This document shows, piece after piece, positions 2-36,100 of a stretch of 64,000 nucleotides of DNA (the stretch's first letter is position 1; every line of letters begins with the position of its first letter). Location: the IMG/VR virus record IMGVR_UViG_3300020468_000005, positions 24,573-88,572 of that record, one strand, 5' to 3'. Both the position numbers and the translations under genes were made by a program. This stretch comes from a virus. Below the pieces are notes generated by a model, which was given only the letters and a program-made list of their open reading frames with translations, did no database searches and was not told the DNA's origin.

Positions 2-823
2 GAATTTGGTAAGGTATTTTTAGCGATTAAACCTAAAAATGCAGATAAATTATCACTTTCCGAAAAAAATGTTGTATTAAAGAAGCTCAGAGAGTATTCT
101 GTAGCAGCAGTTCAACCTTCAATCATTGATCCGTCCATTTTATACATTGATATTGATAGTTTTGTGTACTATAACCCCAATATTACACGGAAAGAATCAG
201 ATGTAATCAAAAATTCCGTACTTGCCACCTTAGTTGCACTCAATACTGGATCTGAATTTAATAAATTTGGTGGAAAGTTCAAATATTCTAAGCTTCAGGG
301 TATAATTGATAGTGCAGATACTTCAATTACTTCAAATATCACTCGTCTCAAGATGAGAAAGAACGTTATAGTGACTCTGAACGCACGAGTGAACTATAAA
401 ATATGTTACGGTAACCGCATTAACCAAGGAACGTCCACACAACCTACTGTTTCCTCTTCAGGATTTGCTATTTCTGGTGATACAGTTAATACTTATTTCC
501 TCAATGATGATGGTGCAGGTTTGTTGAGACTTTACTACATTAAGGGAAGTGGTGAAAAAGAATACATTGGAGGTTCTTGGGGTACTGTTGATTATTCTAT
601 GGGAGAGATCGTGATTAACGATTTGGTGATTACATCAACAATTGCTTCTGGTAATATACTACAACTTAGTGCAATTCCAGAATCTAATGACCTTGTTTCT
701 TTGCGTGAAACCTATTTGACATTAGGTATAGATAATACAACTGTTAATGTTGTAGAAGACACTATCAGTAGTGGTTCAAATCTTTCTGGTACGGGAGTTA
801 TACCAGAGTCCAGTTATAGTTAA
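2..823 (+). CDS. gp6: Baseplate wedge subunit, T4 gp6-like; C-terminal part, 5'-truncated by the window edge
   Basis: The frame is open from position 2 (EFGKVFLAIKPKN...IIDPSILYIDIDSFVYYNPN), so the track start at 164 is internal. GKVFxAIKP, FxYSKLxxxID and GTVDYxxGEI are gp6-like, and the gene lies directly upstream of gp7/gp8. Confidence 0.9.
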   Translation, partial: EFGKVFLAIKPKNADKLSLSEKNVVLKKLREYSVAAVQPSIIDPSILYIDIDSFVYYNPNITRKESDVIKNSVLATLVALNTGSEFNKFGGKFKYSKLQGIIDSADTSITSNITRLKMRKNVIVTLNARVNYKICYGNRINQGTSTQPTVSSSGFAISGDTVNTYFLNDDGAGLLRLYYIKGSGEKEYIGGSWGTVDYSMGEIVINDLVITSTIASGNILQLSAIPESNDLVSLRETYLTLGIDNTTVNVVEDTISSGSNLSGTGVIPESSYS

Positions 824-828
824 CAAGA

Positions 829-3800
829 ATGGCAACTAATCAATCATCTTGGAAGGTCGGTCAGTGGACTACACCAACCACGACGGTTACAACTCAACCT
901 GTACCGTCTGAGGTTACCGCTGAATCGAGATCCCAAATATCCCATAATATTCCTGGACAGTTTGCGTCATTCATTCAGGATGAATATCCTACGTTTATAG
1001 AATTTGTTAAAGCATATTATAAATCACAAGAATTAAGAGGATATTGTTTTGATGTTATTAATAACTGGGGTGATTATTACAATATTGACAATTATGGAAG
1101 TTTAATTGTTGAAACGGACTTAATTTCTTCAATGTCAACTACTTCTACAACAGTTGACGTTACTACAACTCGTGATTTCCCCGATGAAGGTCTTTTGATG
1201 ATAGATGATGAGATCATTTATTACAAAAACAAAGGACAGACTATTTTTAATGACTGTTCAAGAGGATTTGATGCAGTAAAAGCGGTTGGAACTGCTAGTC
1301 AGTATGTTTTTGCTGAAACAACTGCTGCTGAACATGCTCTAGGAGCAAAAGTTGTTAATTTGAACAATATTTTCCCACTTTTCATGTTGGGACAGTTCAA
1401 AGATCAGTATTTGTCCACTTATCCAAAGAATTTTTCAGATGGAGTTACTGAATCTACTGTAATTAAGCGAATTAAAGATTTTTATGCGTCAAAAGGCACA
1501 ACTAGGTCTTTTCAGTTCGTTTTAAGAACACTTTTTGGCGTAGAATCAGAAGTTTCATACCCAAGAGACAGAATCTTCAAACCATCGGATGCATTCTTCA
1601 CTAATAGAGAGGTAATTCGTGCTACAGCAGTTAGTGGAGACCCTACAGAGTTAGTTGGCGAAGTTTTGTACCAAGAAAACGATCCAAGTGACCCATATGT
1701 CAATGAAGCACGTATTTACGTTAAGGGTGTTCAAAAAGTTTTCACTGCTTCAGGGGAAATCTATGAAATTGACGTAGATACCAATAACTCTTCAGGAACC
1801 TTTGTAACACCTTACAAAACTACTATTGCATCAGATGTACCTTCAAGATTAGACTTTACAACGATCACAGTTGATAGTACTTTGGGATGGCCAGAGTTAA
1901 ATGGTAGATTTAGAGTTCAAGATGAAATAATAACATATACAAACAAAACAGTTAACCAATTTATAGGATGTACTCGTGCTAGAGAGGGTACAACCTCTGA
2001 TGAGCATATTGCAGGTCAAGAAGCGTTTGCTGCATTCCGAATTTACGGTAAAAGTAACCTAGATGGGTCTGATATTCAGATTAAAGTATATGGTGGAACG
2101 AGAGGAGTTAATTTAACTAATGGTGGTAAATATTACCTTCCTAAGAGTAAAGTTACAACGCCTGCAGCACCTGGTTTTGACAGTCTTGATCCAATATGGA
2201 GTTCCTTCCAATATAACGTTAGAAAGGCACTTAGAGGGGTTACAGCAGAGTTAGCAACACCTGCTGCTGATGGTTCTGTTCGTGTTACAGTTACCACTAG
2301 AGAAAAACATCGTTTAAGAAGAGATGACAAGGTTAGAATCCTAAATGCTGCTGAAGACATCTATAATAACGAACATGATGTTGTTGGTATTATAGATGAG
2401 TTCAAATTTGAATTTATTCTTGGTAGTGCACCTTCTCAACCTATATTGGAAACAGATGGTTTATTTTTTATCTCTAGAGAATTTGCATTTGGTACAAGTG
2501 TCTACACATCTATCAATAACTTAGTTTCCCAGTACACTGCTGATGTACAAAACGTATATAAGTCAACTGACAATGCAATAGTCGCTAGTACAGGTATACC
2601 ATCACATAAAATAGGTCCTTTCTCTGTAAATGATCCAGATCCAGGAAATCAACGATATTTAAAGAGAATACCATTAGTACCATCAACAAAAAGTACAAAA
2701 ACACCAACTCCTGTTGGGCAAGTTGGGATTGGTGTAAATGGAGTTCCATTTTTCTCATATAAGGGAACTTCGACGAAAAAGTTTGGTGGAATTGCTTCTA
2801 TCACAAAAAATGATGGTGGAGATGGATATGATATTGAAAACCCCCCTACAGTTGAGTTTGAACCCGACTATAAGTTAAATACAACTTATGCAAGTGGCAA
2901 TGTTATAAAATATGATGATAATGGTACTGTAAGAAGATATAGAGCACAGAATCCTGGCACAAGTGATAAAATTACATATCCAACACATACAAGTGGTGCT
3001 GTTAGACATGGAACTATTGATTGGGAATATTTGGGTTTAGGTGCATCAGCAGAAGCTATTATTGATGGTAGAATTATTGCTATCAACGTAACTAACGGTG
3101 GGGGAGGATATACCCGTCAACCTATTGTTTCTATTAGTGGTGGTGGTGCACCTAACAGTACACAGGCAACTGCAGTCGCACAAATTACTGATGGTAGGGT
3201 AACTGGTATTGCGGTAACATATTCAGGTGCTGGTTATACAAAAGTTGCAGGATTACCTAACATATCAATTAGTGGTGGTGGCGGTGTAGGTGCTGCTGCT
3301 AGTGCTGTTGTACGTGGACCTATCAATACAATAAACATCACAAATACAGGATCTGAGTATACTTACGAACCAAATATTACTTTAAAATCTGGTGATGGTG
3401 CTGTGGGTTATGCATCTATTCTTAGTGGAAAGATTGAGAGTATTATTGTTACATTTGGTGGTGCAGATTACTTTGGTGCTCCAGACGTTGTTATTACTGG
3501 AGATGGAGTTGGTGCTACTGCGTTTGCTGTTGTAGATCCAACTAGTAGACAAGTTACATCGGTTACTGTAACAAATAAAGGACTTGGGTATACAACAGGT
3601 AATACTCAAATTAGTATTGTGTATCCTGGTGATGGTGCTAGATTTACAACTAATTTAACTCAGTTAACTTATAACGAAGCAGCAACTGCAGATGAAATTA
3701 AGAAGAATAATCCTAGTGCTATTTTCTCAGATAGAAAAGTTGTAGACGATGCTAATGGTACAGTTGTAAGAGGAGAAAACATTGGAATCTATGATGGTGA

Positions 3801-6800
3801 ATATGGATACTTCTACACTCCAGATAATCTTAGGTATTACCTAGGAGATAGTATTGAATCTAGAATTCCTACAGTAGCAGATCCTTCACCATGGATAGAA
3901 CAGACTCCAATAGGACATTCTCCAATTATAGGTTGGGCATATGACGGACATCCCATATATGGACCTTATGGATTTGAAGATCGACAAAATCAGAACCCAT
4001 ATAACTCGTATATTCAACCAGCTAGTAGTTATAGAATAAAAACATCTAGAGCGTCCATTCTAAGCGGTCTGACAGACCCTATGGGAACGTTTATTGAAGA
4101 TTATGAGTATGTGGAAGGTCTAGGTGATTTAGACCGTTATAATGGTAGATATTGCGTAACTCCAGAATATCCAGATGGAGTATATGCTTATTTTACAACA
4201 ATTGATGGTGTCAGTGGTGCACCTAAATTTCCATACTTTGTAGGACCTGATTTTTACTCAGAAGCAGATGAAATTAACTGGAATGGTAATGGACTACAAA
4301 GAAACTTTACTGAAGACGCTATCCGTTTTAGAGCACCATATATCGGAACTGATCAGGTTACTGCAAAGAGAAAAGCGTTAGATTCAAGAATTGATTTTGT
4401 ACTAGCACTAGAAGATAGTACAACATTAATAACATTAGAAAGTGGAGAAGTTCTTCAATATATTGAAGATGGTATTGGTTACTTTAGTTACTACCCAACA
4501 ATTCGTGGTGGTAGTGCACAATCCTTAACAGTTGCAGCTACTAACAGATATTCATCAACTAATATTAATGACTTCCTTGTAGAAGGTGGTGGGCAAGGAT
4601 ATAAGGTTAATGATAGATTATTATTTGACAATACTGATACTGGTGGTGATGGAGTAAGTGCCACTATCTCAACTATCACAGGTGAACCTGTTTCTACACT
4701 TAATTACGTTGTAAATGATGAAGATGTAACAATTGCTACATTAACCACGACTAATAATCACTATTTGGTTGGTGGTGATCAAATAACTGTTTCTATAGGT
4801 GACAATACTTATGAAAGAGAACTTAAGTCATACCTATACAATTCAAAATTCTATTTTAAGTATTTTGATTTAGTAAGTTATGATTTTATTACAGAATGGA
4901 CAAACAGCACTGCATATAATAAATTTGATTTAGTTTTTGTTGCAAATAGAGTATATCAAGCAACTGAAACCGCAACATCAGATTCTGATGCTAATAACGC
5001 TCCAACACATGTATCTGGCACAGTCAGTGATGGTACAATGTTATGGAAGTATATACGGAAACGTACAGATGGTGCACTTATTGCTACTACTACAAATTCC
5101 CAAGGATCTGGATATTTACCTGGCGTATACACTGACGTTCCAATGCTCACTAATGGGAATGGTAAAAATCTTATATTAGATCTTACTGTTGCTGCTAATG
5201 GAACTATATCAGTTGGTTCTATACCAACGACTGCAGATAGAGGAACTGCATTTAAGATTGGCGATACTATTACAGTTGATGATGATAATGTTGGTAGTAA
5301 CGGTGGATCTGGATTTCAACTTACTGTAACTCAAATATCATTAGAAGCTGTAGTTAGAACTGATGCTGCACATCAATTAGGAGTTGGTGATATAGTTGAT
5401 TTTAAAGGTATGAATGTTGGAACTTATAATGGTGATTTTACAGTAGTAAGAACTGAAACTCTTAGAAGATTTACTATTTCAGTTAATCAATTAGGTACAA
5501 ATGCTGCTCCTAATATTACAAGTTCGGTAGTTAGTGTAAGGGAACCTAAATTCCAATTTATTAATGGACATTCATATAAATTTGATACTTCAGATTCTAC
5601 TCTCAATAATGTTACATTAGCATTTACTCTTGACCCATTAAACACTGATATATTCACATATAAAAACATCACAGATGAGGTTGTTGATACTCAAACTCTT
5701 CAACAAACTTCTATAACTCTTAAGGTTGTAGATTTACCAGGTATTTTCTATTATTTTGATTTAGCAGGTCAATATTCAATAACTGGAAGTTATTTCACTA
5801 TTATGAACGAACCTCTAGCTGGTACAAATATACTATTATCTAAGACTGATACTACTGCTTCATATGCAACTGCATTAGAACCAGAAGTAAATTATGATGC
5901 TTCAAATACTATAACTTATAGTACAAACTCAATATATCCAACTGGAGGAGTCTCAACAATCTCAATTGGAGACAGTGGACGTAATTATGAATCTTTACCA
6001 CAATTATCAGGATCCACCAGAGCTGGTGCAGGTGCAACTGCTGTAGCAACAATTTCTGGAGTATTATCTGGAGTCTCTGTTACAAATAAGGGTTCTGGTT
6101 ATAATCCTGCGTCTTTACCTACAGGGGTTGTTACATTACCTGATTTTGTAGATTTAACACTAACAAACGTTCTTGGTTCTGGTTCATTTGCAGTAAATGA
6201 AATTATTATATCTCAAAGTGCTCAAGGAACTCAAACTGCTAGAGGTAAAGTTATTTCTTGGGATCCATTGAGTTCAACATTGAGAATACAACCTCTTCAA
6301 AATGGAAGGACTGGTGCTGCAAATAAAGGGTATATTATGTTTACCACATTTGCTGCTAATAATGATAGAGGTAAAGTTTTTAGTTCAGATTCTCAGGCAA
6401 CTATTAGTGCAGTGAGTGGTGCTCAAGCAACTGTGCTTTGTAGTATTCCTAGTTCAGGTCCTGATGTAGGTAGATTGTCAGAAGTCACTGTTAATGGTCC
6501 TGGTTCTAACTATAGAGCAGCACCAAATATTATTCTTGACGATCCTGATTTTGGATTAGTTAATACTGTAACAATTACTACAAATACAACTGGATTAACG
6601 CCTGGTCAGTATACTGGTGTTACACAATCTGCTGTAAATCCTACTGGTGGTACTAATGTAGAATTTACGGTTACTTCTGGTGCTGGTGGAACTGTTGAAC
6701 AGGTTGTAGTTACTAATGGTGGTGGTACATATAGACTAGGTGATATCATTACTATTCCTGGTAATCAGATAGGTGGTGCTACAACTGCTAATGATATTAC

Positions 6801-9800
6801 TGTGACAGTTACAGTACTGACACATATTGATCCTGCATCCACATTATGTTCTTTAAATGCAACAGTAGATAGTATAACCATTACTAATACTGGATCTGGT
6901 TATTTGTCTGCTCCAGATGTTCTTGTTAGTGGTGGTAGTGGAATCAATGCAAAATTCAATGCATCTATTCAGAATCAAGGAATATCTGCAATTAATATAG
7001 AAGCTGGTGGAGAATTGTTCCAAAATGCTCCTGTAGTTAACATTACACAAAAAACAGGAACGGGTGCTTCTGTATTATTGAAATCTACCGATTTGGGTAA
7101 AATATTAAAAATTGGTGGAGATAATATTACATTTAATTATAGTCATGATAGAACTCTAAAACCAGAGTTAAATACTACCTTTAATTTACAATTAACAAGA
7201 ACTCAAGTTATTGACTATCTTGAGGTGACAGATGGTGGTGCAAACTTTGTTGCAATTCCAGAAATTGTTCTTACTGGTGGAAGTGGGTCACTTTTTGATT
7301 TAAGAGCCGTTATTGAGAATGAGGTTATACAAAGTGTTGAAGTTCGTAATCCAGGTAGAGGTTTCTTATCAGCTCCATCTGTAAGTGCAAGAATAACTCA
7401 TAATTGGGTTGGATTGAGATCTAACAGTACTTTAAACTTCCCATATAATGCAAAAATACCTACAGGTACGAAAGTTACATTAAATGAAAATATAGGAACA
7501 TTTCCAACTCCATTAGTAACTAATACAACATATTATGCCATTGCAGCGACTCTTGCAAATGGATTAGCAAATAATCAAATTAGATTAGCAACAACTCAAG
7601 CAAATGCAATAGCTGGAACTTATATTAACTTTACAGGTGATCCGATTGGAGATGCTAATGGATTAACAGAATTTACTCTTTCTAGTACTGATCTTGGTGA
7701 TATTATTACTGCATATATGAAACCTGCTAATTTCTTAGTTGGAGAAAGAGTTTATCAAGGTACATCCACTACAACATATACTGCGTTTGGAATTATTAAA
7801 GATTGGGATAGTCGTGGACGTATTCTTAGTGTGGAAATTATAGAAGGTGATTTTCTATCTGGCGAACCTGTCTTTGGTGAAGAATCAGCAGCATTTGGTG
7901 AAATCCATGCATTTGATAGAGCAGATGCAACATTTAACGTATCTCCTATTAGTACTTCTGCTGAAGGTTGGGAACGTACCACTGGTTTCTTAGATGTCAA
8001 TGAGCAGAGAATATATGATAGTGATAGGTTCCAAGAATACTCATATGAAATTTCTTCACCTATCAATATTAATAAATGGAAAAACCCATTAAAATTTGCA
8101 GCACATCCTGCAGGATTTAAGGTACTTGGTACACAAGTTGTTTTAGAATCTAGTGCTAAAATTTATAGATCCAAATCTACAATAAATTCAAACTATTCTT
8201 CAAATGAACCATGGGCATGGTGGGTAGAATCACCTCAACCAAATTTACAAACATTTAATGGCACTACCTATGTTTTCCCCAAACCTTCTGCTAGGTCAAC
8301 TGGTAAATTAGCAACTATTAAGAACTTTGCACTAGGTGACCCAGACTACTCAGCAGCAGTTCCTACTGAGGTACAAATTTTTGGTAGACAACTATTAGAT
8401 ATTCAGAAAATCTTAAGTTGCATCTCATATAAGATTGATGATATTAGTTCTTCTTTTGATGGATCTACGACTGTTTTTAATTTAACAATTAGTGGTGCTA
8501 CTGTAACTACTAAAATTGGAAAAACTTCTATTAAAGAACAATTCTTAGTTACAATAAATGGAATTGTTCAGAATCCTAATAATTACACTTTTGCAAACGA
8601 TGCCATAACATTCTCAGTTGCACCTAAGGCAAATTCTGTTGCTTTGATAATGTATTATGATCGTGCATCATATACTTCTAGTTTCCAGTTAGATCAAATT
8701 GGAGATGAGATAAAAGCATTTGATATTACTAATGGATTGACAGGTGGTACAGGATATGCAGATGGTACATATACTGCAATTCCATTAAGAAATAAAATTG
8801 GTAGTGGTGTTGGTGCAACTGCTGATATTACAGTTAGTAATGGTTATGTTTCTAACGTTGTATTGAATAACTCAGGTGATGGATTTAGAGATGATGGTAT
8901 TGTTGGAATTAGTGAAATTGGAAAACCATTAACTAACAGTTATACCCCCTCTACAGCAACTTACGCTCCTAGTACAGGTGTACTAGAATTAACAGTAGGA
9001 TCACATACTTTAAGTGCTCCTACAACAGCAACTGCCACAGATATTGACTATAATCCTAATACAGGTATTATGACAGTTACACTAGTGTCACACGGATTGG
9101 AAGCGGGTGATCAAGTTAAGTTTGCTGATAATTCAATAACTCTTAGTTGTGCTTTTGGTGGTGCTTCAGGAGCAGCTGCTCAGAAGACCTATCCACGTAG
9201 TACTGACTATGCAAGTGATAGATGGTTAGAAGTATCAAACATAACAGTTAATACATTTGATGTTCAGGTATTAGATAGTATTCCTTCTACAAACGTAGAT
9301 CCACATTCATTTGTATCTGCTGTTGCTGGTGGAATTAGTATTGCACAATCTACTGTTAGATTCTCAAACAATGCAATAACATTCAGTTGTGGATTTGGTG
9401 GTGGAGGTAATAGAAGTTACCCAAGGTCAACAGATCCTATTGCTGGTAAAAACGTTCCTGTTGATGCTATTACATCTACTACGTTTACGATCAATGCATT
9501 AAATGGAACCACACCTACAAACACTGATGCACACACTTATGTTGGTAATGCCACTGCTGCTTTGAGTCCAACCTTTGTTGATTATGATGCTTCTCTTGGT
9601 ATCATGAAACTAGAGTTAGCTAATCATGGACTTTCTAATGGTAACTTTATCCAATTTACTTCAGATTCACTAAACTTTATTTGTTCTCGTGATAACTATG
9701 CAACTACAACTGCATATCCTAGAGGATCAGATCCAGCTGCTGTAAACTGGTTAAATGTATTTGATGTAGAAACTAATAGTTTCAAGGTTCAGGTTGGAGC

Positions 9801-12800
9801 AAATATAGAAAAAGCATTTACACCAACTGGTGCGACATATACTGCGTCAACAGGTTCATTAACTTTAGATATAGAGAACCATGGATTTACGGCTGCTACT
9901 GAGCATACTGCAACTGATGCTACTTTTAATACTACTACTGGTATTGTCACAATAACTTCTGCAAGTCATGGATTTGCAGCAGGTGATAGAGTTAAAATAA
10001 AAGACAGTTCTATAACCATGAGTTGTGGTTATAATGGAGGTGGGCAAGAATCATATCCTAAACCAGGTCAACCAATTAGCGGTAAGTGGATAACAGTTAG
10101 AGCAATTACCCAAGATACTTTTGATATCCAATGTCTTAAAGATGCTCCTTGTAGTAATAGTGATGCACACACATTTGTTTCTGCTACTGCAAATGGAATC
10201 CTCCACGCTAAGAGTGTAATCAGTATTGATGATGAAGCATTAACATTTACATGCACACAAGATGATGACTTCTCTAGAAAATCATATCCTCGTACAACAG
10301 ATCCTGCATCAAGAGAATTACTTGGTATTGAAGCAGTTACCACTGACACTCTAACAGTTAACGTAGGTGCATCACCTCAGGTTACATTCACACCAACTAA
10401 TGCAGTTTATACTCCTAGTACAGGTGTACTAGTATTGACAATAGGTAATCATACTCTTCCTGTTGGTACAGGTATTAGTATTGATGTAAACTCCTTGAAG
10501 TTTAGATGTGACATGGAAAATGATGGTACTCTCATTGCAGGAAACTTATCAAATCTAGGTGCTAGTCTTCACAATTATCCAAGACCAACAGATCCAGCTG
10601 CTAAGAGCAATCTTTATATTACTGAAACGACAGGTACTACAATCACAGTTAATGTTAAACCATCTGTCACTGTAAATTACCAACCAACAGACGCTGCCTT
10701 GAATCTTGCTAATGGAGATCTTTCATTAACTATCGGTGCACATCAATTCCGTGGAGAAAAGACATTTACACCAACAGCTGTTGACTATACTCCCAACACT
10801 GGTCTTGCAACATTAACAATTAAAGGTCATACTATTCAAGCAGGTGACTTTGTTCAGGTTGCTAAAGAATCACTTACATTTACATGTGCACAAGATAGTC
10901 ATCAGACTAATCATTCTTATCCAAGAACTACTGATCCTGTCTATAGAGAGTGGATTCAGGTTATTTCTGTAACAAATGATACAATACTGCTTAACTTCTA
11001 CTCAACTGTTGCAGGTAATTCAGCACACCTATTTGTATCTGCTGCAGATGACTGTATTGCATTAAAAGGAGATACTATCAAGTTAACAGATGGTAGCATC
11101 GTAATGAGTTGTGATAATGGTGGTGTTAGCAACCAGTCTTATCCTAGAACTGATACTATTTCATATACTCCAACAGGTGCAGATTATGATCCTTCTACTG
11201 GAGTCATGACTGTTACTCATGGAGGGGGTGCAGGTGCCTTTGTGAACGGTGATCAAGTTAAGTTTGATGATAATGCTATTGTATTCACTTGTGCTGCTGG
11301 TGGTGGCACACACGCTTATCCTAGACCAGGCGATCCTGCTAGTGGTAGATGGTTAACTATTTGGAATGCTGACGATACAACCTTCAAGGTTCAGGTATTA
11401 GATACAATTCCTTCTACAAATACTAGTGTACATGTATTCTCTAGTGCTGTTAATAATGGCACGAAGAAAAAGAAAGACTGGGCGTATGATAGACCGATTC
11501 CGATCAAGAGTGTTGGATATACATCTCATGCTGTAACAAATGCTACATATGATCCTAGTACAGGTGTACTAGTAGCAACAGTTGCAGGTCATGGATTCTC
11601 AAATGGCGAATATGTTAAAGTAAATCAAAGTGCATTGAAGTTTACATGTAATAAAGATAGTAATGCAACAGTTAAGAGTTACCCAACACTAGAAGATCCT
11701 TATTATGATGAGTGGGTAAAAGTAAGAAATGTTACAACTGATACATTTGAGATTAATGTTGGAGTTGCAGGTCCTAATGGACAGCACACCCATACATTTG
11801 TACCAGAGGGTAAATTGACACCAACCTTAGGAGCATACAATCCAACAACAGGTGTTATGACTATAACTATTCCTGATCATGGATTTGTTGCTGGTGATGA
11901 GATCAAAGTTGATGACAATGCGTTTAGATTCACATGTCTTGAGGACTTTGATACTTCATACCATGATTATCCTCGTAACACAGACCCAATCAGCGGTCAG
12001 TGGGTTAAGATATACAATGTCACAACTAATACTTTTGATATACAGGTTCTAAACAGTGTACCGTCTACTAATACCACTACTCATACGTTTATTTCCGCAG
12101 TTGCTAATTCGATTACTCGCTCTGCCATCAAGAAGCAAACTGGCGTTATTACGTTCAATACTAATAATAGAGATGCTGCTATTACTCATCAGTACGCTCA
12201 TAGTTTTGTATCAGCAAGTGCTACAGCCGTCATAGCAGGTGGCAATTATACTCACACCTTCATACAGTCAACATCTGGTGCTGTTAAGACTGGTGGTGAT
12301 TATGTACATACATTCGTCAATGCTAAACCTACTTCTGTAAAATATGGATATACTCACTTGTACACAGGAAATGCAATTGCTAATCCTGTAACAAGAGGTC
12401 TAGTAACATCTGGTGGTCATGCATACGATAGATTAGCTGATGCGGGTAGATTAATACGAGCAAACTTAGATTTCATTGCAACTACTGCATATGGTAGAAT
12501 GCTTGCATTGAATCCTACTTTTGATGGTGATCTCTATAAGAGAAAATGTATTCGTGATACTAAGTTAATTTCTGAAGCAGTAGCAAACAATATTGAGTTT
12601 GGTGGAAATGATGGTGTTTATGATGCAGCAAATTTCTATGTTGGAACTGTACACCTAACTGGTGAAGAAGATCAATCTGTACAGGTGTTCAATGCTGCTA
12701 GAGATATCTGTCGTGAGGTAATGCGTAATATCACTGTTACAACTAATTACGTTACTGAAGGATCACAAGTTAAGGATCTTACTATTACCAATGATAGTGG

Positions 12801-14382
12801 AGACAATACCTATACTACAGCAGACTGTAGCGATATTGCATCTGCTATTAGCACACTATGGGGAATAGTAACACAGGCAGTAGGAACAACTGCAGGTGGT
12901 TCAGGTAACTTGAATAACGTTACTAGAACTGCTTCTGAATCTCCTGAGTTCCAAGTTGAGATTGATACAGTAACATTTGATGGAGTTGATACAACATTTA
13001 ACGCACAGGTTAATGGTTCAAACTATTCATTACCTGCAAGTGATAACTTCTTAATATTCTTGAATAGTATTCTTCAACTTAAAGGTAGTACTGAATCATA
13101 TACTTACACAGGTAGTGCAATTACATTTAATGAAGCACCTGTTAGTGGTATGGACTTCTATGGATTCTACTTTGGTAAATTAGTTCTTTTAGATGATCTT
13201 TCTCCATTCTTTGACAATAGTAAGGAAACCTTTACTATGACACTAAACAATGAACCATTCTCATTAGAGAGTGATAATGAGAATGTAGAACCATCAAATA
13301 ACTTGATGATATTCATTAATGGAGTATTCCAAGAACCTGGTGTCGCATACTCTCTTAATGGATCAATTATAAAATTCAGTGAAGCTCCAAGAGCAAATTC
13401 TCAAGCATCCTTGTACATCTATACTGGATCTGATGAAGATATATTTGTTTCCAATACATTTAACTCAATTGATCCTACAGACAGAATGCAGGTTGCTAGT
13501 GAAGGATCTGATCGTTTAATCGCAACAGTCTCAAGTGCTACTTCAGTTGATACTTACGAATATGTTGGACTTAGACCAACCACTGCTACATTTACAGCAG
13601 TATTGACTAATGGTGTTGTTACTAATATTATTATTGACAATCCTGGTGAAAATTATGAAGATCCTCCAGTCCTTCTATTCCAAGGAGGTAGTGGAGTTGG
13701 TGCTAGTGGAACTACCACTATTGAACCAGGTAGCGGTAAAGTACTTACTGCTACTATTGCAAATGGTGGTACTGGATATTTAACCGTACCAACAATAGTT
13801 CCTGTTCATGCTGTTGATATAGAGAGAAAATCTAGAGATAGAATCATTTCCAATTCACTTGCTTTGGGATGTACATATCTTACTTCTTCCATAACTGACA
13901 GTAGTACAACTCTCAACTGCAAGAATATATACTATGATACTAGTCAAAGAATTGGTTTCCCCGATGAAGGCGAAGTATTGATACCATTCTATGATACAAC
14001 TGTTACTCCAAACAGATGGAATGTAGAAAGAATTCTATACGGATCTAGAAATACATCTGCGAATACAATAACCGTAGCAACAGGTGGTAGAGGATATAGA
14101 GGAACCACTGCAGCTGCACACACTGTTTTAACAGGAACATACAGTGCGTCTGGAATAACTTGTACCGTGACTACATCCGCAACTCATAATTATGTGACTG
14201 GTATGAAAGTTTTCTTGGACTTTACAAGTGGACCTACAGCAGAACCAATAAACTGGGGTTTTGATGGAGAGTATGCGGTTACAGTTACATCTGGGAACAC
14301 ATTTACGGTAGAATTCCCATTCAGTCAAACATCAAGCGGAAACGTCTCGATTCTGCCAGAAGTTCGTCTGAGATCATTATAA
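829..14382 (+). CDS. gp7: Giant baseplate wedge initiator, gp7-like (4517 aa), multi-domain
   Basis: N-terminal FIQDEYPTFIEFVKAYY...IKDFYASKGT..SF.F..R.LFG and later DSDRFQEYSYEI...HPAGFK motifs are typical of cyanophage gp7. Lies between gp6 and gp8. Contains a YHYH-like region, GxGY beta repeats, CBM-like modules and 11 YPR modules. Confidence 0.88.
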   Translation: MATNQSSWKVGQWTTPTTTVTTQPVPSEVTAESRSQISHNIPGQFASFIQDEYPTFIEFVKAYYKSQELRGYCFDVINNWGDYYNIDNYGSLIVETDLISSMSTTSTTVDVTTTRDFPDEGLLMIDDEIIYYKNKGQTIFNDCSRGFDAVKAVGTASQYVFAETTAAEHALGAKVVNLNNIFPLFMLGQFKDQYLSTYPKNFSDGVTESTVIKRIKDFYASKGTTRSFQFVLRTLFGVESEVSYPRDRIFKPSDAFFTNREVIRATAVSGDPTELVGEVLYQENDPSDPYVNEARIYVKGVQKVFTASGEIYEIDVDTNNSSGTFVTPYKTTIASDVPSRLDFTTITVDSTLGWPELNGRFRVQDEIITYTNKTVNQFIGCTRAREGTTSDEHIAGQEAFAAFRIYGKSNLDGSDIQIKVYGGTRGVNLTNGGKYYLPKSKVTTPAAPGFDSLDPIWSSFQYNVRKALRGVTAELATPAADGSVRVTVTTREKHRLRRDDKVRILNAAEDIYNNEHDVVGIIDEFKFEFILGSAPSQPILETDGLFFISREFAFGTSVYTSINNLVSQYTADVQNVYKSTDNAIVASTGIPSHKIGPFSVNDPDPGNQRYLKRIPLVPSTKSTKTPTPVGQVGIGVNGVPFFSYKGTSTKKFGGIASITKNDGGDGYDIENPPTVEFEPDYKLNTTYASGNVIKYDDNGTVRRYRAQNPGTSDKITYPTHTSGAVRHGTIDWEYLGLGASAEAIIDGRIIAINVTNGGGGYTRQPIVSISGGGAPNSTQATAVAQITDGRVTGIAVTYSGAGYTKVAGLPNISISGGGGVGAAASAVVRGPINTINITNTGSEYTYEPNITLKSGDGAVGYASILSGKIESIIVTFGGADYFGAPDVVITGDGVGATAFAVVDPTSRQVTSVTVTNKGLGYTTGNTQISIVYPGDGARFTTNLTQLTYNEAATADEIKKNNPSAIFSDRKVVDDANGTVVRGENIGIYDGEYGYFYTPDNLRYYLGDSIESRIPTVADPSPWIEQTPIGHSPIIGWAYDGHPIYGPYGFEDRQNQNPYNSYIQPASSYRIKTSRASILSGLTDPMGTFIEDYEYVEGLGDLDRYNGRYCVTPEYPDGVYAYFTTIDGVSGAPKFPYFVGPDFYSEADEINWNGNGLQRNFTEDAIRFRAPYIGTDQVTAKRKALDSRIDFVLALEDSTTLITLESGEVLQYIEDGIGYFSYYPTIRGGSAQSLTVAATNRYSSTNINDFLVEGGGQGYKVNDRLLFDNTDTGGDGVSATISTITGEPVSTLNYVVNDEDVTIATLTTTNNHYLVGGDQITVSIGDNTYERELKSYLYNSKFYFKYFDLVSYDFITEWTNSTAYNKFDLVFVANRVYQATETATSDSDANNAPTHVSGTVSDGTMLWKYIRKRTDGALIATTTNSQGSGYLPGVYTDVPMLTNGNGKNLILDLTVAANGTISVGSIPTTADRGTAFKIGDTITVDDDNVGSNGGSGFQLTVTQISLEAVVRTDAAHQLGVGDIVDFKGMNVGTYNGDFTVVRTETLRRFTISVNQLGTNAAPNITSSVVSVREPKFQFINGHSYKFDTSDSTLNNVTLAFTLDPLNTDIFTYKNITDEVVDTQTLQQTSITLKVVDLPGIFYYFDLAGQYSITGSYFTIMNEPLAGTNILLSKTDTTASYATALEPEVNYDASNTITYSTNSIYPTGGVSTISIGDSGRNYESLPQLSGSTRAGAGATAVATISGVLSGVSVTNKGSGYNPASLPTGVVTLPDFVDLTLTNVLGSGSFAVNEIIISQSAQGTQTARGKVISWDPLSSTLRIQPLQNGRTGAANKGYIMFTTFAANNDRGKVFSSDSQATISAVSGAQATVLCSIPSSGPDVGRLSEVTVNGPGSNYRAAPNIILDDPDFGLVNTVTITTNTTGLTPGQYTGVTQSAVNPTGGTNVEFTVTSGAGGTVEQVVVTNGGGTYRLGDIITIPGNQIGGATTANDITVTVTVLTHIDPASTLCSLNATVDSITITNTGSGYLSAPDVLVSGGSGINAKFNASIQNQGISAINIEAGGELFQNAPVVNITQKTGTGASVLLKSTDLGKILKIGGDNITFNYSHDRTLKPELNTTFNLQLTRTQVIDYLEVTDGGANFVAIPEIVLTGGSGSLFDLRAVIENEVIQSVEVRNPGRGFLSAPSVSARITHNWVGLRSNSTLNFPYNAKIPTGTKVTLNENIGTFPTPLVTNTTYYAIAATLANGLANNQIRLATTQANAIAGTYINFTGDPIGDANGLTEFTLSSTDLGDIITAYMKPANFLVGERVYQGTSTTTYTAFGIIKDWDSRGRILSVEIIEGDFLSGEPVFGEESAAFGEIHAFDRADATFNVSPISTSAEGWERTTGFLDVNEQRIYDSDRFQEYSYEISSPININKWKNPLKFAAHPAGFKVLGTQVVLESSAKIYRSKSTINSNYSSNEPWAWWVESPQPNLQTFNGTTYVFPKPSARSTGKLATIKNFALGDPDYSAAVPTEVQIFGRQLLDIQKILSCISYKIDDISSSFDGSTTVFNLTISGATVTTKIGKTSIKEQFLVTINGIVQNPNNYTFANDAITFSVAPKANSVALIMYYDRASYTSSFQLDQIGDEIKAFDITNGLTGGTGYADGTYTAIPLRNKIGSGVGATADITVSNGYVSNVVLNNSGDGFRDDGIVGISEIGKPLTNSYTPSTATYAPSTGVLELTVGSHTLSAPTTATATDIDYNPNTGIMTVTLVSHGLEAGDQVKFADNSITLSCAFGGASGAAAQKTYPRSTDYASDRWLEVSNITVNTFDVQVLDSIPSTNVDPHSFVSAVAGGISIAQSTVRFSNNAITFSCGFGGGGNRSYPRSTDPIAGKNVPVDAITSTTFTINALNGTTPTNTDAHTYVGNATAALSPTFVDYDASLGIMKLELANHGLSNGNFIQFTSDSLNFICSRDNYATTTAYPRGSDPAAVNWLNVFDVETNSFKVQVGANIEKAFTPTGATYTASTGSLTLDIENHGFTAATEHTATDATFNTTTGIVTITSASHGFAAGDRVKIKDSSITMSCGYNGGGQESYPKPGQPISGKWITVRAITQDTFDIQCLKDAPCSNSDAHTFVSATANGILHAKSVISIDDEALTFTCTQDDDFSRKSYPRTTDPASRELLGIEAVTTDTLTVNVGASPQVTFTPTNAVYTPSTGVLVLTIGNHTLPVGTGISIDVNSLKFRCDMENDGTLIAGNLSNLGASLHNYPRPTDPAAKSNLYITETTGTTITVNVKPSVTVNYQPTDAALNLANGDLSLTIGAHQFRGEKTFTPTAVDYTPNTGLATLTIKGHTIQAGDFVQVAKESLTFTCAQDSHQTNHSYPRTTDPVYREWIQVISVTNDTILLNFYSTVAGNSAHLFVSAADDCIALKGDTIKLTDGSIVMSCDNGGVSNQSYPRTDTISYTPTGADYDPSTGVMTVTHGGGAGAFVNGDQVKFDDNAIVFTCAAGGGTHAYPRPGDPASGRWLTIWNADDTTFKVQVLDTIPSTNTSVHVFSSAVNNGTKKKKDWAYDRPIPIKSVGYTSHAVTNATYDPSTGVLVATVAGHGFSNGEYVKVNQSALKFTCNKDSNATVKSYPTLEDPYYDEWVKVRNVTTDTFEINVGVAGPNGQHTHTFVPEGKLTPTLGAYNPTTGVMTITIPDHGFVAGDEIKVDDNAFRFTCLEDFDTSYHDYPRNTDPISGQWVKIYNVTTNTFDIQVLNSVPSTNTTTHTFISAVANSITRSAIKKQTGVITFNTNNRDAAITHQYAHSFVSASATAVIAGGNYTHTFIQSTSGAVKTGGDYVHTFVNAKPTSVKYGYTHLYTGNAIANPVTRGLVTSGGHAYDRLADAGRLIRANLDFIATTAYGRMLALNPTFDGDLYKRKCIRDTKLISEAVANNIEFGGNDGVYDAANFYVGTVHLTGEEDQSVQVFNAARDICREVMRNITVTTNYVTEGSQVKDLTITNDSGDNTYTTADCSDIASAISTLWGIVTQAVGTTAGGSGNLNNVTRTASESPEFQVEIDTVTFDGVDTTFNAQVNGSNYSLPASDNFLIFLNSILQLKGSTESYTYTGSAITFNEAPVSGMDFYGFYFGKLVLLDDLSPFFDNSKETFTMTLNNEPFSLESDNENVEPSNNLMIFINGVFQEPGVAYSLNGSIIKFSEAPRANSQASLYIYTGSDEDIFVSNTFNSIDPTDRMQVASEGSDRLIATVSSATSVDTYEYVGLRPTTATFTAVLTNGVVTNIIIDNPGENYEDPPVLLFQGGSGVGASGTTTIEPGSGKVLTATIANGGTGYLTVPTIVPVHAVDIERKSRDRIISNSLALGCTYLTSSITDSSTTLNCKNIYYDTSQRIGFPDEGEVLIPFYDTTVTPNRWNVERILYGSRNTSANTITVATGGRGYRGTTAAAHTVLTGTYSASGITCTVTTSATHNYVTGMKVFLDFTSGPTAEPINWGFDGEYAVTVTSGNTFTVEFPFSQTSSGNVSILPEVRLRSL
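8941..12400 (+). repeat. Array of 11 nested Cys/YPRxxDP protein modules within gp7
   Basis: Counted in the translation: 11 opening motifs (YxPxTG..H-like), 11 cores (F/M/LxC...YP[RKT]) and 11 closing HxF/Y strands. Confidence 0.85.
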
Positions 14383-33105: not shown

Positions 33106-36100
33106 ATGGCTCTTAAGATTAATTCTGACCAACAGAGAATATCAGCATCGGGTGCTACCCCTACAGGAAATTGGGTTGGTGCTACGTATAGTAGGACTGT
33201 GGGAGGACTTGTAAATATCCTTTCAGTTGGACACGGGTTTATAGGGAACGAAAAGTTATATATTGACTTCACATCTGGTGGTGAAACAGATGGAACATAT
33301 ATTGTATCAAAAGTAGATGATGATAATTTACAATTTCAGAGTACTAACTTAGGTGTAATCACTGCAGGTAACACTGCAGCATATAGAAGAGTAAGATCTT
33401 TAAGTGTACAAGGTGATGAATCTGTAGAATTTTCAGTGGGTGTAGATGCCAACGAAAAGGATGCTATAACTTTAAACTTAAATGCACAGAATAATATTAG
33501 AGTTGGTGTTAATACTACCGATCCACAGTATGAACTAGACGTTGAGGGACAGATTAGAACAACTCGTTCTATCATTTCTGATACTGCACAGGTTACAAAC
33601 CTTGATATCAATACGATTATCAACCCTGCATTAGATCTTCGTGGTCCTAATTTAATTAACTATGAAGATACAGATGTAACAAGTCCTACATTTGGCACAA
33701 TATTTTTCCCTACTGCTGACACACCTCCCCTAAGTGATCAGTCAAGAAGGGTTGCAACCACTGACTTTGTATATAAAGTTGCTACTAATGACACTGGTGG
33801 TCGTGTATACGTGTCACAAACTATTGGTAGTGATCTAAATGATGGTCGTTCAGCTGCAAGACCAGTTAAAACTATTAAGAAAGCAGCACAGATTGCTTAT
33901 ACTTTACAAAAAGCACAACCAGATCCTAGTGATGAATACGTTTCACTAATCGTATCTGGTGGTGAATACTTTGAAGATAACCCAATTACACTTCCTAGGA
34001 ACTGTTCACTTATTGGTGACAACTTAAGACGAGTAATTGTTAGACCTCAAAACCAAGATCGTCATATGCTCAAAGCGTCTAACGAGACGTATGTGTTCGG
34101 TGTTGTATTCAGAGATGCATTACAAAATCAGTCAGATCCACAAAGTACTGTTATTCATACTTGGAAGTATGCGTTTGTGTTTGATGACAAACAAAGATTA
34201 TATTACGAACCAGAGTTAGGACAGATTCCATCAATACCTGGTGATAAGTTCCGTGGTGATAACCTTTTCAACATTACCTTTACCAACCATACAGGTAACA
34301 ATACAACTCTCGTAGTTGGTTATTTTCTACAAGGTGGATCTTCTGGTACATTAGGTACAATTCAAGAAATTACATTTACAGGTCCTGTTGCATCACCATA
34401 CTCCACTGGTTCTGTTAAAGTCTTAATTACATCAGGTGTTAATGATGTATTCCAAGACGCTGAAAAAGTATTCTATGATTCTGTAGCAGCAAATATTATT
34501 ACTGACATTAATAATGCAGGTGTGTCTGATAGATTTGACGTATCTGATGCTGAATCATTAAGACCAGAATTAGAGACAATCTCTAACCAGATTTATCAGC
34601 ATACAATCAACTCAGAAAGAGAAACTATTGCTTTTGCTGCTGATGGTACTAAAGTAAATACAACTACAGATCGTATTACAATCACTGGTCACGGACTTAA
34701 AACTGGTGATCAAGTTTATTATGAAAAAGATGAAAACGCTGCGGCTCTTGGTGGTCTTGCTGACAGCACACTTTATTATATAAGAAACGTTGATGCTAAT
34801 ACTATAGAACTTTATGATCTTTGGGTAGATGCTACAGCAACTACAGCAACTACAGGTATTAGAAATTTAAGTTCGGTTTCCCCAGATACTAAACTTCACT
34901 TATTTACTACTGGTAAGATGATGCCAGAGGGTAATCATATCTTTGTTGATACCCATCAATTTGCAAGTGGTGATGGTGTAGTATACCGTGAGAGTAAAAT
35001 GGGCAAGATAGACGGTCTTGTCTCTGGTACAACATATTATGTTTATAAGGAAAATGTAAATTGGTTTAGACTTGCATCATCTGCTGCTAACGCATTAAAC
35101 AAAGATGCTCAAGGTAATGATGCTCCTGTAACTCTTCCTCTTAATAGTACAGGTTTAGGATATCAAAGATTTGAAATAGCAGATAGAATATACTCAATCG
35201 CAACTCTTGACACATCATTAGCTACACAGCAGACCTACAATGGTCCTATATTCAATATTTCTGGTACTACTTATCATGACTATGAGGTAGGACAAGAAAT
35301 TCAGTTATATGGATTCACAAGTACTGCAATTGATTTTGGTGGATCTGTAAACTCATCTTGGAGTTTAGCTTCTGGTGAAGTTACAGTTACTTTAAGCACT
35401 GTAGATAATACACTTGTTACTAATCTATTCTCCAACTGGATGTCACTTGGAGAATGTGGTCTGAAGTTTAGTTTTGGTGGTACAGGATCTGAAGCATTAA
35501 GCAAGACATATCATATTGATAACTTCTCTCTAGGATCTGGAACTCCATCATTACCTGGCAACACTGCACTAGGTATGGGTTATGCCAGATATAATAGTTC
35601 TTCTTTAACTGTTACTTTTGTACTTAAGACAGCAAATATTCAATCAACAACTAATACTGCAACTGCTACTGGTTCTACAGTCAGTGTTTTAGATAACGTT
35701 GAAGATCTTAATGGTAGAAAATATATTACACATCGTATAGAACGTGCTGATGGTTACTCACTACAGTTTGTAGTAAGATCTTCTATCAGTGTATTTAATA
35801 CAACATTTAATCCAACTGGTAACCAGTCAGTTATTTCAACTAGCAACTATGTTCTAGCATCTCTAAGGAACTCTCCTTATGGATTTAAAAAGATAGATCA
35901 GACAGACAGATATAGAGATGGTGCAGAATCTATCAGAGCAAACCAAGAATTTATTGCACAGGAAGCATATGGATATGTTAAATCTCATTATGAAAACTCT
36001 GCTACTAGAAATAGCACTTTAACAATAGGACCTACTACATTCGTTGCATTAGGAGATACATTTGATCATCCTATTACCGAGTGGTCTACTAGTTTCAATA

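What the first reader, a model, noticed from the sequence alone, without database searches (positions are those of the whole stretch)
8941..12400. Matryoshka architecture in gp7: 11 modules nested like balanced brackets
Seen: each module of about 100 aa has an opener (YxPxTGxxxxTxxxH), a core (TFxC...YPRxxDP) and a closer (HTFVSA). The modules are not simply tandem. For example, opener ATYAPSTG..SHTLSA is followed by a complete second module, and only then by its own core (ITFSCGFGGGGNRSYPRSTDP). Another core is cut between SYPRTD and DWAY by a whole module. The block ends with four stacked orphan closers (HSFVSA, HTFIQS, HTFVNA, HLYTG, about 12190-12370) that match the four modules still open. 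Totals are 11 openers, 11 cores and 11 closers. Inference: recursive domain-in-domain insertion builds a branched stalk in which the chain runs out and back.
Basis: partly seen in the sequence, partly recalled or inferred. Interest (0 to 1): 0.75.

Follow-up and report, generated by a model that had tools for sequence, protein, structure and literature searches.

The report
Nested beta-barrel modules in cyanophage gp7
A giant baseplate protein of a marine cyanobacterial virus is built from about 100-residue beta-barrel modules that are inserted into the loops of one another, several levels deep, a rare way of building a protein that was known before mainly from the RNA polymerase of cyanobacteria.

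Summary
The ORF 829..14382 (4517 aa) sits in the gp7 position (gp6-gp7-gp8) of a T4-like cyanomyovirus. Residues 2704-3856 hold 11 copies of a 102-104-position module. A profile built from the six uninterrupted copies maps the others as split hits with exact complementary break points.

The nesting tree is m1(m2), then m3(m4(m5, m6(m7(m8, m9, m10, m11)))). Four consecutive closers complete m7, m6, m4 and m3.

The same grammar runs through the family. In 112 distinct token strings the stack-parse cost is 1060, against 1834 or more in 200 fragment shuffles. Couplings learned from contiguous modules prefer last-in-first-out closer pairing in 32 of 43 non-redundant stacks.

One module folds at pLDDT 97.7 as a small beta-barrel with no Pfam family and no PDB relative by sequence. 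No model coordinates were available, so docking of the closers is not shown directly.

The closest precedent is the recursively inserted HABAS domains of cyanobacterial RNA polymerase Si3 (passages read). I rate it a new variant of a known kind. This scan noted the same stretch before in another window.

The parts
829..14382 (+). gp7-position giant baseplate wedge protein, 4517 aa
   Evidence: ORF. phrog_2885 baseplate wedge subunit matches aa 27-594, and the YHYH domain matches aa 990-1126. It is flanked by gp6-like (2-823) and gp8-like (14406-15920) genes.
8938..9018 (+). m1 segment A (opener, aa 2704-2730)
   Evidence: HMM positions 1-27; A token at 31.2 bits
9025..9348 (+). m2, whole module inserted in the A|B loop of m1 (aa 2733-2840)
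   Evidence: HMM positions 2-103, 147.6 bits
9349..9555 (+). m1 segments B, C, D (aa 2841-2909)
   Evidence: HMM positions 29-98
9565..9810 (+). m3 segments A, B, C, left open (aa 2913-2994)
   Evidence: HMM positions 3-83
9817..9894 (+). m4 segment A (aa 2997-3022)
   Evidence: HMM positions 2-27
9901..10209 (+). m5, whole module inserted in the A|B loop of m4 (aa 3025-3127)
   Evidence: HMM positions 1-103, 147.0 bits
10213..10377 (+). m4 segments B, C, left open (aa 3129-3183)
   Evidence: HMM positions 29-81
10384..10671 (+). m6 segments A, B, C, left open, with a long loop inside B (aa 3186-3281)
   Evidence: HMM positions 1-84; tokens
10678..10755 (+). m7 segment A, degenerate opener (aa 3284-3309)
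   Evidence: A token at 12.3 bits
10762..11067 (+). m8, whole module in the A|B loop of m7 (aa 3312-3413)
   Evidence: HMM positions 1-103, 139.1 bits
11068..11157 (+). m7 segment B (aa 3414-3443)
   Evidence: HMM positions 27-57; B token at 29.3 bits
11161..11472 (+). m9, whole module in the B|C loop of m7 (aa 3445-3548)
   Evidence: HMM positions 1-104, 137.1 bits
11473..11523 (+). m7 first half of segment C (aa 3549-3565), degenerate
   Evidence: Read from the sequence; aligns to the first part of the C columns. Below the sub-profile threshold.
11524..11814 (+). m10, whole module (aa 3566-3662), weak closer
   Evidence: HMM positions 1-98, 135.6 bits
11815..12126 (+). m11, whole module (aa 3663-3766); folded alone
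   Evidence: HMM positions 2-103, 157.6 bits; AlphaFold2 pLDDT 97.7
12127..12237 (+). m7 second half of segment C plus stacked closer 1 (aa 3767-3803)
   Evidence: HMM positions 74-101 at aa 3775-3801; D token at 11.9 bits; the coupling energy with m7 is the best in its row and its column
12238..12291 (+). stacked closer 2, assigned to m6 (aa 3804-3821)
   Evidence: D token at 7.3 bits; pLDDT about 86 in the large model
12292..12345 (+). stacked closer 3, assigned to m4 (aa 3822-3839)
   Evidence: D token at 6.6 bits; the coupling energy with m4 is the best in its row and its column
12346..12396 (+). stacked closer 4, degenerate here (HLY), assigned to m3 (aa 3840-3856)
   Evidence: Below threshold here; canonical H-x-F-V-S-A in the 74% relatives
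36226..39345 (+). second nested block of the same module, in the 4195-aa ORF 33106..45693 (aa 1041-2080)
   Evidence: The tokens include a fully balanced stretch, ABC A ABCD B ABCD C D D

Best explanation
Residues 2704-3856 of the gp7-position baseplate protein are built by repeated insertion of a roughly 100-residue beta-barrel module into surface loops of other copies of the same module.

The module has strands b0 to b9, and I divide it into four segments:
- A: b0-b2
- B: b3-b5
- C: b6-b7
- D: b8-b9

Its first and last strands lie side by side, so a whole module can be spliced into a loop of a host module without breaking the host. Four loops are used here: b2/b3, b5/b6, b6/b7 and b7/b8.

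When the insertion sits in the b7/b8 loop, the host is left open. Its last hairpin (segment D, the closer, which carries an invariant His) returns only after everything nested inside it.

The chain therefore runs out through m3, m4, m6 and m7, carries the side modules m5, m8, m9, m10 and m11, and comes back through four consecutive closers. These complete m7, m6, m4 and m3 in that order.

What is shown: the split hits, the family-wide grammar, the covariation in favour of last-in-first-out pairing, and a confident fold for a single module.

What is inferred:
- The closers physically dock on the open modules.
- The four host modules stack into a doubly connected, stiff, branched rod on the periphery of the baseplate.
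- The four nearly invariant residues His, Cys, Asp and His, one from each segment, form a metal site or an equivalent clamp that holds the distant pieces together.
For: **1. Split hits.** The break points are exact and complementary.

**2. Conservation of the pattern.** The same split pattern is present in P0003 (96% identity) and P0004-P0006 (73-74%), and in independent viral contigs.

**3. Family-wide grammar.**
- In 112 distinct token strings (6788 tokens), a stack parser costs 1060. Shuffling the order of the fragments gives a mean cost of 1970 and a minimum of 1834 over 200 shuffles.
- Pieces ending in A number 294 and pieces starting with B number 288. The two counts are equal in 79 of 112 proteins (r = 0.84), while control cross-pairs give r = -0.13.
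- In 135 of 266 A...B intervals the interior is exactly one whole module.

**4. Covariation.**
- Mean-field DCA on 944 contiguous modules (Meff 454) pairs strand b8 with b4/b5 (columns 40-91, 40-93, 49-93, 43-88). It also pairs the N end with the C end (columns 3-99 and 3-100).
- With these couplings the last-in-first-out assignment beats the reversed one in 32 of 43 non-redundant stacks (binomial p = 0.002), and in 67 of all 91 stacks.
- In held-out tandem modules the module's own closer beat the swapped one in 14 of 14 pairs.
- For this protein LIFO ranks 3 of 24 permutations and FIFO ranks 14, with closer 4 uninformative. For the relatives P0005 and P0006, LIFO ranks 3 and 1 of 24 and FIFO ranks 20 and 21.

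**5. Invariant residues.** H22 is present in 918 of 944 contiguous modules, C41 in 942, D57 in 916 and H90 in 942. The open modules keep His, Cys and Asp, and the stacked closers keep the His.

**6. Structure.**
- A single module folds at pLDDT 97.7 and pTM 0.88.
- In the 1171-residue model (mean pLDDT 72.9), closers 2 and 3 reach 81-86 and form strands of the same lengths as b8 and b9 of whole modules.
- In the search with the large model, 3 of 50 rows have ranges running from an inserted module to a closer: 611..1108 and 606..1113 (m8 to the end of closer 1), and 324..1144 (m5 to the end of closer 3). Only the first and last aligned residues are known for these rows.
Against: - No coordinates were available, so no closer-to-opener contact was observed.
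- The pLDDT pattern of the closers (about 55-62, 86, 81, 37) mirrors that of the open modules equally well under LIFO and FIFO pairing.
- A typed-token test was noisy: 270 completions were LIFO-consistent, 177 FIFO-consistent and 114 neither. Shuffles gave 86/173/134.
- Of 109 informative A...B intervals only 29 were balanced. Shuffles gave a mean fraction of 0.18 and a maximum of 0.31.
- Totals for the less well detected pieces do not match: pieces ending in B number 422 against 186 starting with C, and pieces ending in C number 732 against 622 orphan D. This is partly explained by degenerate closers that the profile misses.
- LIFO lost in 11 of 43 non-redundant stacks.
- For this protein the best permutation was not LIFO.
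- m3 and m7 are modelled with low confidence.
- The metal site rests on conservation alone.
Confidence: 0.8

Rival explanations
1. The modules that lack a closer are simply truncated seven-strand versions. The four H-x-F repeats at the end form a small independent beta-meander or cap domain of their own.
For: - The closers are consecutive beta-hairpins with a period of 16-18 residues, and they could pair with each other.
- No contact with the open modules was observed, because no coordinates were available.
- Counts of open-C pieces and orphan D pieces do not match exactly across the family, 732 against 622.
Against: - The closers match the D profile above every reversed-sequence decoy (11.9, 7.3 and 6.6 bits against 5.5) and keep the invariant His.
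- Their number equals the number of open modules here and in the relatives.
- Coupling energies learned from whole modules single out particular open modules for particular closers.
- The open modules keep the His, Cys and Asp that in whole modules accompany the closer His.
Confidence: 0.1
2. The pieces do complete one another, but not in nested order. Closers pair first-in-first-out, or strands are exchanged between neighbouring modules (domain swapping), as reported for some recursively inserted HABAS domains of Si3.
For: - The pLDDT pattern is symmetric and fits FIFO as well as LIFO.
- 177 typed completions were FIFO-consistent.
- 11 of 43 stacks preferred the reversed order.
- Passages of PMC11515920 say that recursively inserted HABAS domains sometimes exchange secondary-structure elements.
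Against: - LIFO wins in 32 of 43 non-redundant stacks.
- FIFO ranks 14, 20 and 21 of 24 for this protein and two relatives.
- The LIFO fraction of typed completions, 0.48, exceeds every one of 100 shuffles (maximum 0.28).
- The three wide ranges end at the closer expected under LIFO.
- Insertion of whole modules can only produce nested order.
Confidence: 0.07
3. The pattern is an artefact of metagenome assembly, or chance similarity among low-complexity beta repeats.
For: The protein is repetitive and comes from an uncultured source.
Against: - DNA copies are only 20-81 nt long and 60-85% alike.
- The identical architecture occurs in independent contigs at 96-98% and 73-75% identity.
- Split hits have i-Evalues of 5e-6 to 6e-23.
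- Reversed-sequence decoys give almost no tokens.
Confidence: 0.01

Closest known systems
Si3 insertion of cyanobacterial RNA polymerase beta' (recursively inserted HABAS / sandwich-barrel hybrid motif domains)
   Same: In both, copies of one small beta domain are inserted into other copies of the same domain, several levels deep, and a single host can carry more than one insert. Passages of PMC11515920 describe nine additional HABAS domains 'inserted into other HABAS domains'. Passages of PMC13114784 describe eight domains in a six-level recursive architecture in Prochlorococcus rpoC2.
   Different: - The domain is different. No RNA polymerase or HABAS chain is among the 50 rows shown for the single module, so relatedness is inconclusive.
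- The setting is different: a virion baseplate protein rather than an enzyme.
- Here the trait is family-wide and variable. 587 giant homologues were found, and 766 representative proteins carry the module.
- Four loops are used, and the host's last hairpins return as a stack of consecutive closers.
T4 gp7 baseplate wedge protein and the cyanophage 'gp7 baseplate wedge initiator'
   Same: The gene sits between gp6-like and gp8-like genes. The N-terminal 570 residues match phrog_2885, baseplate wedge subunit. The matching genes in P-SSM4, P-HM1 and S-SSM7 are annotated as gp7 or baseplate wedge initiator.
   Different: The protein is about four times longer than T4 gp7 (a length I recall, not from a call). 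The nested block has no counterpart outside cyanophage records in the collections searched. Pfam Baseplate_wedge scores below its cut-off, 19.2 against 27 bits.
Inserted beta-barrels: the barrel domain of phage endosialidases and the FCCH domain of ubiquitin-activating enzyme E1 (PF16190)
   Same: These are the best structural matches of the single module: 4hiz_A (Z 7.5, rmsd 2.4, 80 aligned), 4p22_B (Z 7.1) and 9mc4_A (Z 7.0). The nearest ESM Atlas cluster that carries a Pfam family is E1_FCCH, at score 0.91. From recall, both of these domains are themselves inserted into a host domain.
   Different: Z below 8 is in the range the tool calls common. Foldseek finds nothing at E <= 0.001. Only 2 of 146 modules match PF16190 at E <= 0.01. 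The signature H / C / YPR / D / H is particular to the phage module.

Membership tests
Recursive same-domain insertion architecture (as in RNA polymerase Si3) | A domain's sequence is interrupted by a whole copy of the same domain family, with the host's two parts complementary (A1-B-A2) | tested here: met
   m1 matches HMM positions 1-27 and 29-98 around m2. m4 matches positions 2-27 and 29-81 around m5.
Recursive same-domain insertion architecture (as in RNA polymerase Si3) | Inserted domains are themselves hosts, giving more than two levels | tested here: met
   m3 > m4 > m6 > m7 > m8-m11 makes five levels by token parse. Greedy-parse depths of 4 to 12 were seen in 112 strings; these may be overestimates.
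Recursive same-domain insertion architecture (as in RNA polymerase Si3) | The split host folds as one domain in three dimensions | tested here: inconclusive
   Covariation favours LIFO pairing and closers 2 and 3 are confident strands, but the tools return no coordinates.
HABAS / sandwich-barrel hybrid motif domain (CATH 2.40.50.100) | [quoted passage not shown] | tested here: inconclusive
   No HABAS-bearing chain is among the 50 rows shown for the single module. The module has a G-H-G-x-x-x-G-D stretch that resembles the motif quoted in PMC11515920. No profile comparison was run.
E1_FCCH (PF16190) | Match to the Pfam model above its threshold | tested here: not met
   0 families for the window's m11. 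2 of 146 modules match at E <= 0.01, best 0.0017. There is no hit for the whole protein at E <= 0.1.
E1_FCCH (PF16190) | Same fold | tested here: inconclusive
   Z 7.0-7.1 against 4p22_B and 9mc4_A, with 75-76 residues aligned. Z 8.5 with the large model. This is in the tool's 'common arrangement' range.
T4-type gp7 baseplate wedge protein | Position between gp6 and gp8 homologues | tested here: met
   Gp6_C-I is weak (21.1 bits against a cut-off of 27) on ORF 2-823. Phage-Gp8 matches ORF 14406-15920 at 5.6e-15.
T4-type gp7 baseplate wedge protein | Sequence match to the wedge-subunit family | tested here: met
   phrog_2885 'baseplate wedge subunit', E = 0, aa 27-594 against profile positions 2-571. 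Pfam PF23786 is below its cut-off.
T4-type gp7 baseplate wedge protein | Presence in the virion baseplate | not testable with these tools
   This needs proteomics or cryo-EM of a cultured relative.

The most novel reading that the evidence does not exclude
The module is a self-inserting building block held together by a His-Cys-Asp-His metal clamp, with one ligand from each of the four segments, so that pieces hundreds of residues apart lock into one barrel. Marine cyanomyoviruses use it as a grammar: whole modules are spliced into any of four loops, and are sometimes circularly permuted. This grows stiff, doubly connected, branched fibres whose nesting tree changes quickly between relatives and tunes the geometry of the baseplate periphery and of host contact. 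If so, this would be the most extensive natural case of recursive domain insertion, and a ready-made scaffold for protein design.
Probability: 0.3. Interest if true: 0.8.

Novelty: new variant of a known kind. Interest (0 to 1): 0.62.

Why it matters
Tandem 'beads on a string' is the usual way to make long viral fibres. Here the same bead is threaded through itself, so neighbouring modules are joined by two chain crossings instead of one, and the chain returns to where it started. That should give stiffness and branching, and it keeps downstream domains near the baseplate.

The family is large and varied: 587 giant homologues and 766 representative proteins. This gives many natural variants of one nesting grammar, which is useful for three purposes:
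- studying how domain insertion evolves;
- testing structure predictors on discontinuous domains;
- designing insertion-tolerant scaffolds.

It also puts a name and a fold on an unannotated domain that fills a large part of the structural genes of abundant marine cyanophages. Ordinary domain scanners will mis-count this domain because of the splits.

Tried and rejected
1. **Complex prediction.** I folded the open module m6 (alignment A5) with a 32-residue peptide centred on closer 2 (alignment A6). The result was no verdict: scores 0.30 and 0.24 against a mark of 0.32, and controls were not run. It counts neither for nor against.

2. **Foldseek of the whole 1171-residue model against the PDB.** It returned only generic multi-domain beta arrays with TM 0.04-0.10. 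Uninformative.

3. **Typed-token LIFO/FIFO test and the A...B interval balance test.** Both are blurred by missed degenerate C and D pieces. I report them as weak or inconclusive.

4. **Search for whole-module insertions or deletions between related token strings.** The result was dominated by truncated contig ORFs and single-token detection noise. Only 3 of 19 multi-token differences were balanced. Uninformative.

5. **Known families.**
- Pfam finds no family on the block.
- PDB searches by sequence give a best E of 0.7 for the block and 0.27 for the module profile.
- Megablast against the phage collection gives no match.

6. **Literature.** Searches for nested or recursive domain insertion in phages found nothing on phage proteins: 0 papers, 3 irrelevant, 0. 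Searches listed cyanophage papers, which I did not open; none mentions these repeats in its title or the start of its abstract. I read only passages of PMC13114784 and PMC11515920. My examples of other inserted or split domains are recalled, not checked.

Full report
**What and where.** All large ORFs of the window lie on the + strand. The finding lies inside ORF 829..14382, 4517 aa.
- The N-terminal 570 residues match phrog_2885, baseplate wedge subunit. Residues 990-1126 are a YHYH domain.
- The upstream ORF ends like gp6 (weakly) and the downstream ORF ends like T4 gp8.
- A translated search of the block against 50,697 phage records hits 261 records, all labelled Synechococcus (207), Cyanophage (25), Prochlorococcus (20) or Marine virus (9). 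The genes under the hits are often annotated as gp7 baseplate wedge initiator, structural protein or tail fibre.
- The window therefore comes from a T4-like cyanomyovirus, and the protein is its gp7-position baseplate protein. No near-identical phage record is in that collection.

**The observation.**
- I built an HMM from the six uninterrupted modules (m2, m5, m8, m9, m10, m11; 104 positions) and searched the protein with it. Besides the six whole hits (136-158 bits), it gave partial hits whose HMM ranges fit together across a whole module:
  - m1: positions 1-27 and 29-98 around m2.
  - m4: positions 2-27 and 29-81 around m5.
  - m7: positions 27-57 between m8 and m9.
  - m3 and m6: positions 3-83 and 1-84, with no closer.
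- I then built sub-profiles from 445 whole modules of homologues, for segments A (strands b0-b2), B (b3-b5), C (b6-b7) and D (b8-b9). They were calibrated on 121 reversed proteins.
- In this protein they give 11 A, 11 B, 10 C and 9 D. Three stacked orphan D pieces score 11.9, 7.3 and 6.6 bits, against a best decoy D score of 5.5.
- Two closers are too degenerate for the profile. One is the closer of m10. The other is the fourth stacked one, which is canonical in the 74% relatives.
- m7 is cut three times. Its missing b7 strand reappears at aa 3767-3782, directly before closer 1 (stretch 17).
- The tree is m1(m2), then m3(m4(m5, m6(m7(m8, m9, m10, m11)))), which is five levels.

**Not an artefact.** DNA-level repeats in the block are short (20-81 nt) and 60-85% alike. 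The same token string is found in contigs at 96-98% identity and, with two extra upstream modules, at 73-75% identity.

**Family-wide grammar.**
- A word-indexed search found 587 giant homologues at E <= 0.001 among 1338 scored candidates. An exhaustive profile search found 766 representative proteins among 1.84 billion.
- Token strings of 112 distinct proteins (6788 tokens) break into these fragments: ABCD 624, D 622, ABC 591, AB 338, A 294, CD 145, BCD 104, BC 100, B 84 and C 41.
- A greedy stack parser has cost 1060 on the real order. With the same fragments shuffled, the mean cost is 1970 and the minimum 1834 over 200 shuffles.
- The best-detected break, A|B, balances almost exactly: 294 against 288, equal in 79 of 112 proteins, r = 0.84, with unrelated pairs of categories at r = -0.13. 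In 135 of 266 A...B intervals the interior is exactly one whole module.
- The less well detected breaks balance poorly: 422 against 186 for B|C and 732 against 622 for C|D. Two order tests that depend on them were weak or inconclusive.
- Inspection shows that the profile misses degenerate closers and degenerate C halves.
- The other giant ORF of the window, 33106..45693, carries the same module with a fully balanced stretch, ABC A ABCD B ABCD C D D.

**Which closer belongs to which opener.**
- No coordinates could be had, so I used covariation. Mean-field DCA on 944 distinct contiguous modules (Meff 454) gives a sensible strand map. It pairs b8 antiparallel with b4 and with b5 (column pairs 40-91, 40-93, 49-93, 43-88 and 42-88). 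It pairs b3 with b6 and b2 with b7. It also couples the first strand with the last (3-99, 3-100).
- The last coupling means that the two ends of a module touch. This is the condition for inserting a module into a loop.
- I used only the couplings between segment D and the rest as a score. In held-out tandem modules, a module's own closer beat its neighbour's in 14 of 14 pairs. This control is small.
- Applied to stacks of two or more adjacent orphan closers, the LIFO assignment beat the reversed one in 67 of 91 stacks, and in 32 of 43 after removing near-duplicates (binomial p = 0.002, Wilcoxon p = 0.0005).
- For this protein, m7 with closer 1 and m4 with closer 3 are each the best in both their row and their column. 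m6 with closer 2 is marginally the best in its row. Closer 4 could not be aligned. LIFO ranks 3 of 24 and FIFO ranks 14.
- In two 74% relatives with a canonical fourth closer, LIFO ranks 3 and 1 of 24 and FIFO ranks 20 and 21. A third relative was dropped because its token pattern was split. These relatives are orthologues, not independent tests.

**Structure.**
- The whole block (aa 2700-3870) was folded with an alignment of 41 sequences. Mean pLDDT was 72.9.
- Whole modules mostly score 75-90. m4 and m6 are high, m3 is about 63 and m7 is low.
- Closers 2 and 3 reach 81-86 and closer 1 reaches 55-62. Closer 4 is about 37.
- Strand lengths in the closers equal those of b8 and b9 in whole modules.
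- This fits docking of the closers on the open modules, but it cannot separate LIFO from FIFO.
- A search of 48,161 PDB representatives with this model placed most rows on m5, m8, m9 or m11. Three of the 50 rows had ranges reaching from an inserted module to the closer that LIFO gives to its host: 611..1108, 606..1113 and 324..1144. This is weak evidence, since only the first and last aligned residues are known.
- A single module (m11) folded with 146 sequences gives pLDDT 97.7 and pTM 0.88, with nine to ten strands.
- Foldseek finds no PDB match at E <= 0.001.
- The exhaustive aligner gives these best matches:
  - the barrel domain of phage phi92 endosialidase (Z 7.5, rmsd 2.4, 80 residues aligned);
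  - the FCCH domain of E1 enzymes (Z 7.0-7.1);
  - a phage head-to-tail protein (Z 6.9);
  - many FAD-binding and elongation-factor-type barrels (Z 5-6).

  The tool warns that these values are common.
- Among predicted viral structures, close matches are all cyanophage structural proteins or unnamed entries.
- Pfam has no model for the module: 0 hits for m11, and at most 4 of 146 modules match any family at E <= 0.01.

**Invariant residues.** In 944 contiguous modules, His22 is present in 918, Cys41 in 942, Asp57 in 916 and His90 in 942, beside the YPR motif. They sit one in each of segments A, B, C and D. By the strand register above, Cys41 and His90 face each other. Open modules keep the first three residues and orphan closers keep the fourth. 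A metal site or similar clamp that ties the four segments together is an attractive reading. It rests on conservation only.

**How it most likely works.** Whole modules are spliced into one of four loops of a host module. The host still folds because the insert's ends touch. Insertions in the b7/b8 loop postpone the host's last hairpin. Repeated insertion there gives a run of open hosts followed, after the innermost cargo, by a run of closers in reverse order. The closers follow one another without linkers, every 16-18 residues. For that reason m7, m6, m4 and m3 must lie next to each other, joined by both the outgoing and the returning chain, with m5 and m8-m11 as side or tip modules. I infer a stiff, branched rod on the outside of the baseplate. 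This last step is inference.

**Comparison with what is known.** Passages of two papers describe the same principle in the Si3 insertion of cyanobacterial RNA polymerase beta'. [quoted passage not shown] This gives a six-level recursive architecture in Prochlorococcus rpoC2, sometimes with exchanged strands (PMC11515920; PMC13114784). The kind is therefore known. The differences here are:
- an unannotated module;
- a virion protein as the setting;
- four insertion loops;
- the stacks of closers;
- the spread and variability across hundreds of giant cyanophage proteins.

My searches found no description of this in phages (and the listings).

**Verdict.**
- Recursive self-insertion is very likely (about 0.9).
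- LIFO docking of the closers is likely (about 0.8).
- The stalk geometry and the metal clamp are plausible but untested.
- Novelty: a new variant of a known kind. Interest 0.62.

The scan had already noted this stretch in another window.

Noticed in passing
P0003 aa 4021-4125 (a 96%-identical relative); the corresponding point in the window is aa 4021, nt about 12889: The relative carries a 100-residue insertion that the window's protein lacks. Its segments run D-A-B-C, so it is a circularly permuted copy of the module, spliced in just after the helical region that follows the closers. This fits a module whose two ends touch, and it shows recent gain or loss of a module.
   Followed up: partly
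window 33106-45693, aa 1041-2080 (nt about 36226-39345): The 4195-aa ORF carries the same module, also nested. It includes a perfectly balanced stretch, ABC A ABCD B ABCD C D D.
   Followed up: partly
Pfam gives no PF00502 hit for this protein at E <= 0.1. Several homologues carry a precomputed PF00502 mark, for example P0009, P0017 and P0032.
   Followed up: partly
window 3796-4206 (aa 990-1126 of the same protein): A YHYH domain (PF14240, E = 4.1e-25) is embedded in the giant baseplate protein. Many homologues share it.
   Followed up: no
window 15921-22628 and 25288-32532: Two further giant ORFs. The 2235-aa ORF has DUF4815 (E = 2.2e-63). The 2414-aa ORF has a Laminin_G_3 / concanavalin-like domain (E = 3.7e-21). 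Neither carries the module.
   Followed up: no
module columns 21-30 (for example aa 3683-3692 in m11): The stretch G-H-G-x-x-x-G-D-x-hydrophobic resembles the GD-box-like motif quoted for HABAS domains in PMC11515920. It may hint at a distant link between the two recursively inserting domains. Not tested.
   Followed up: no
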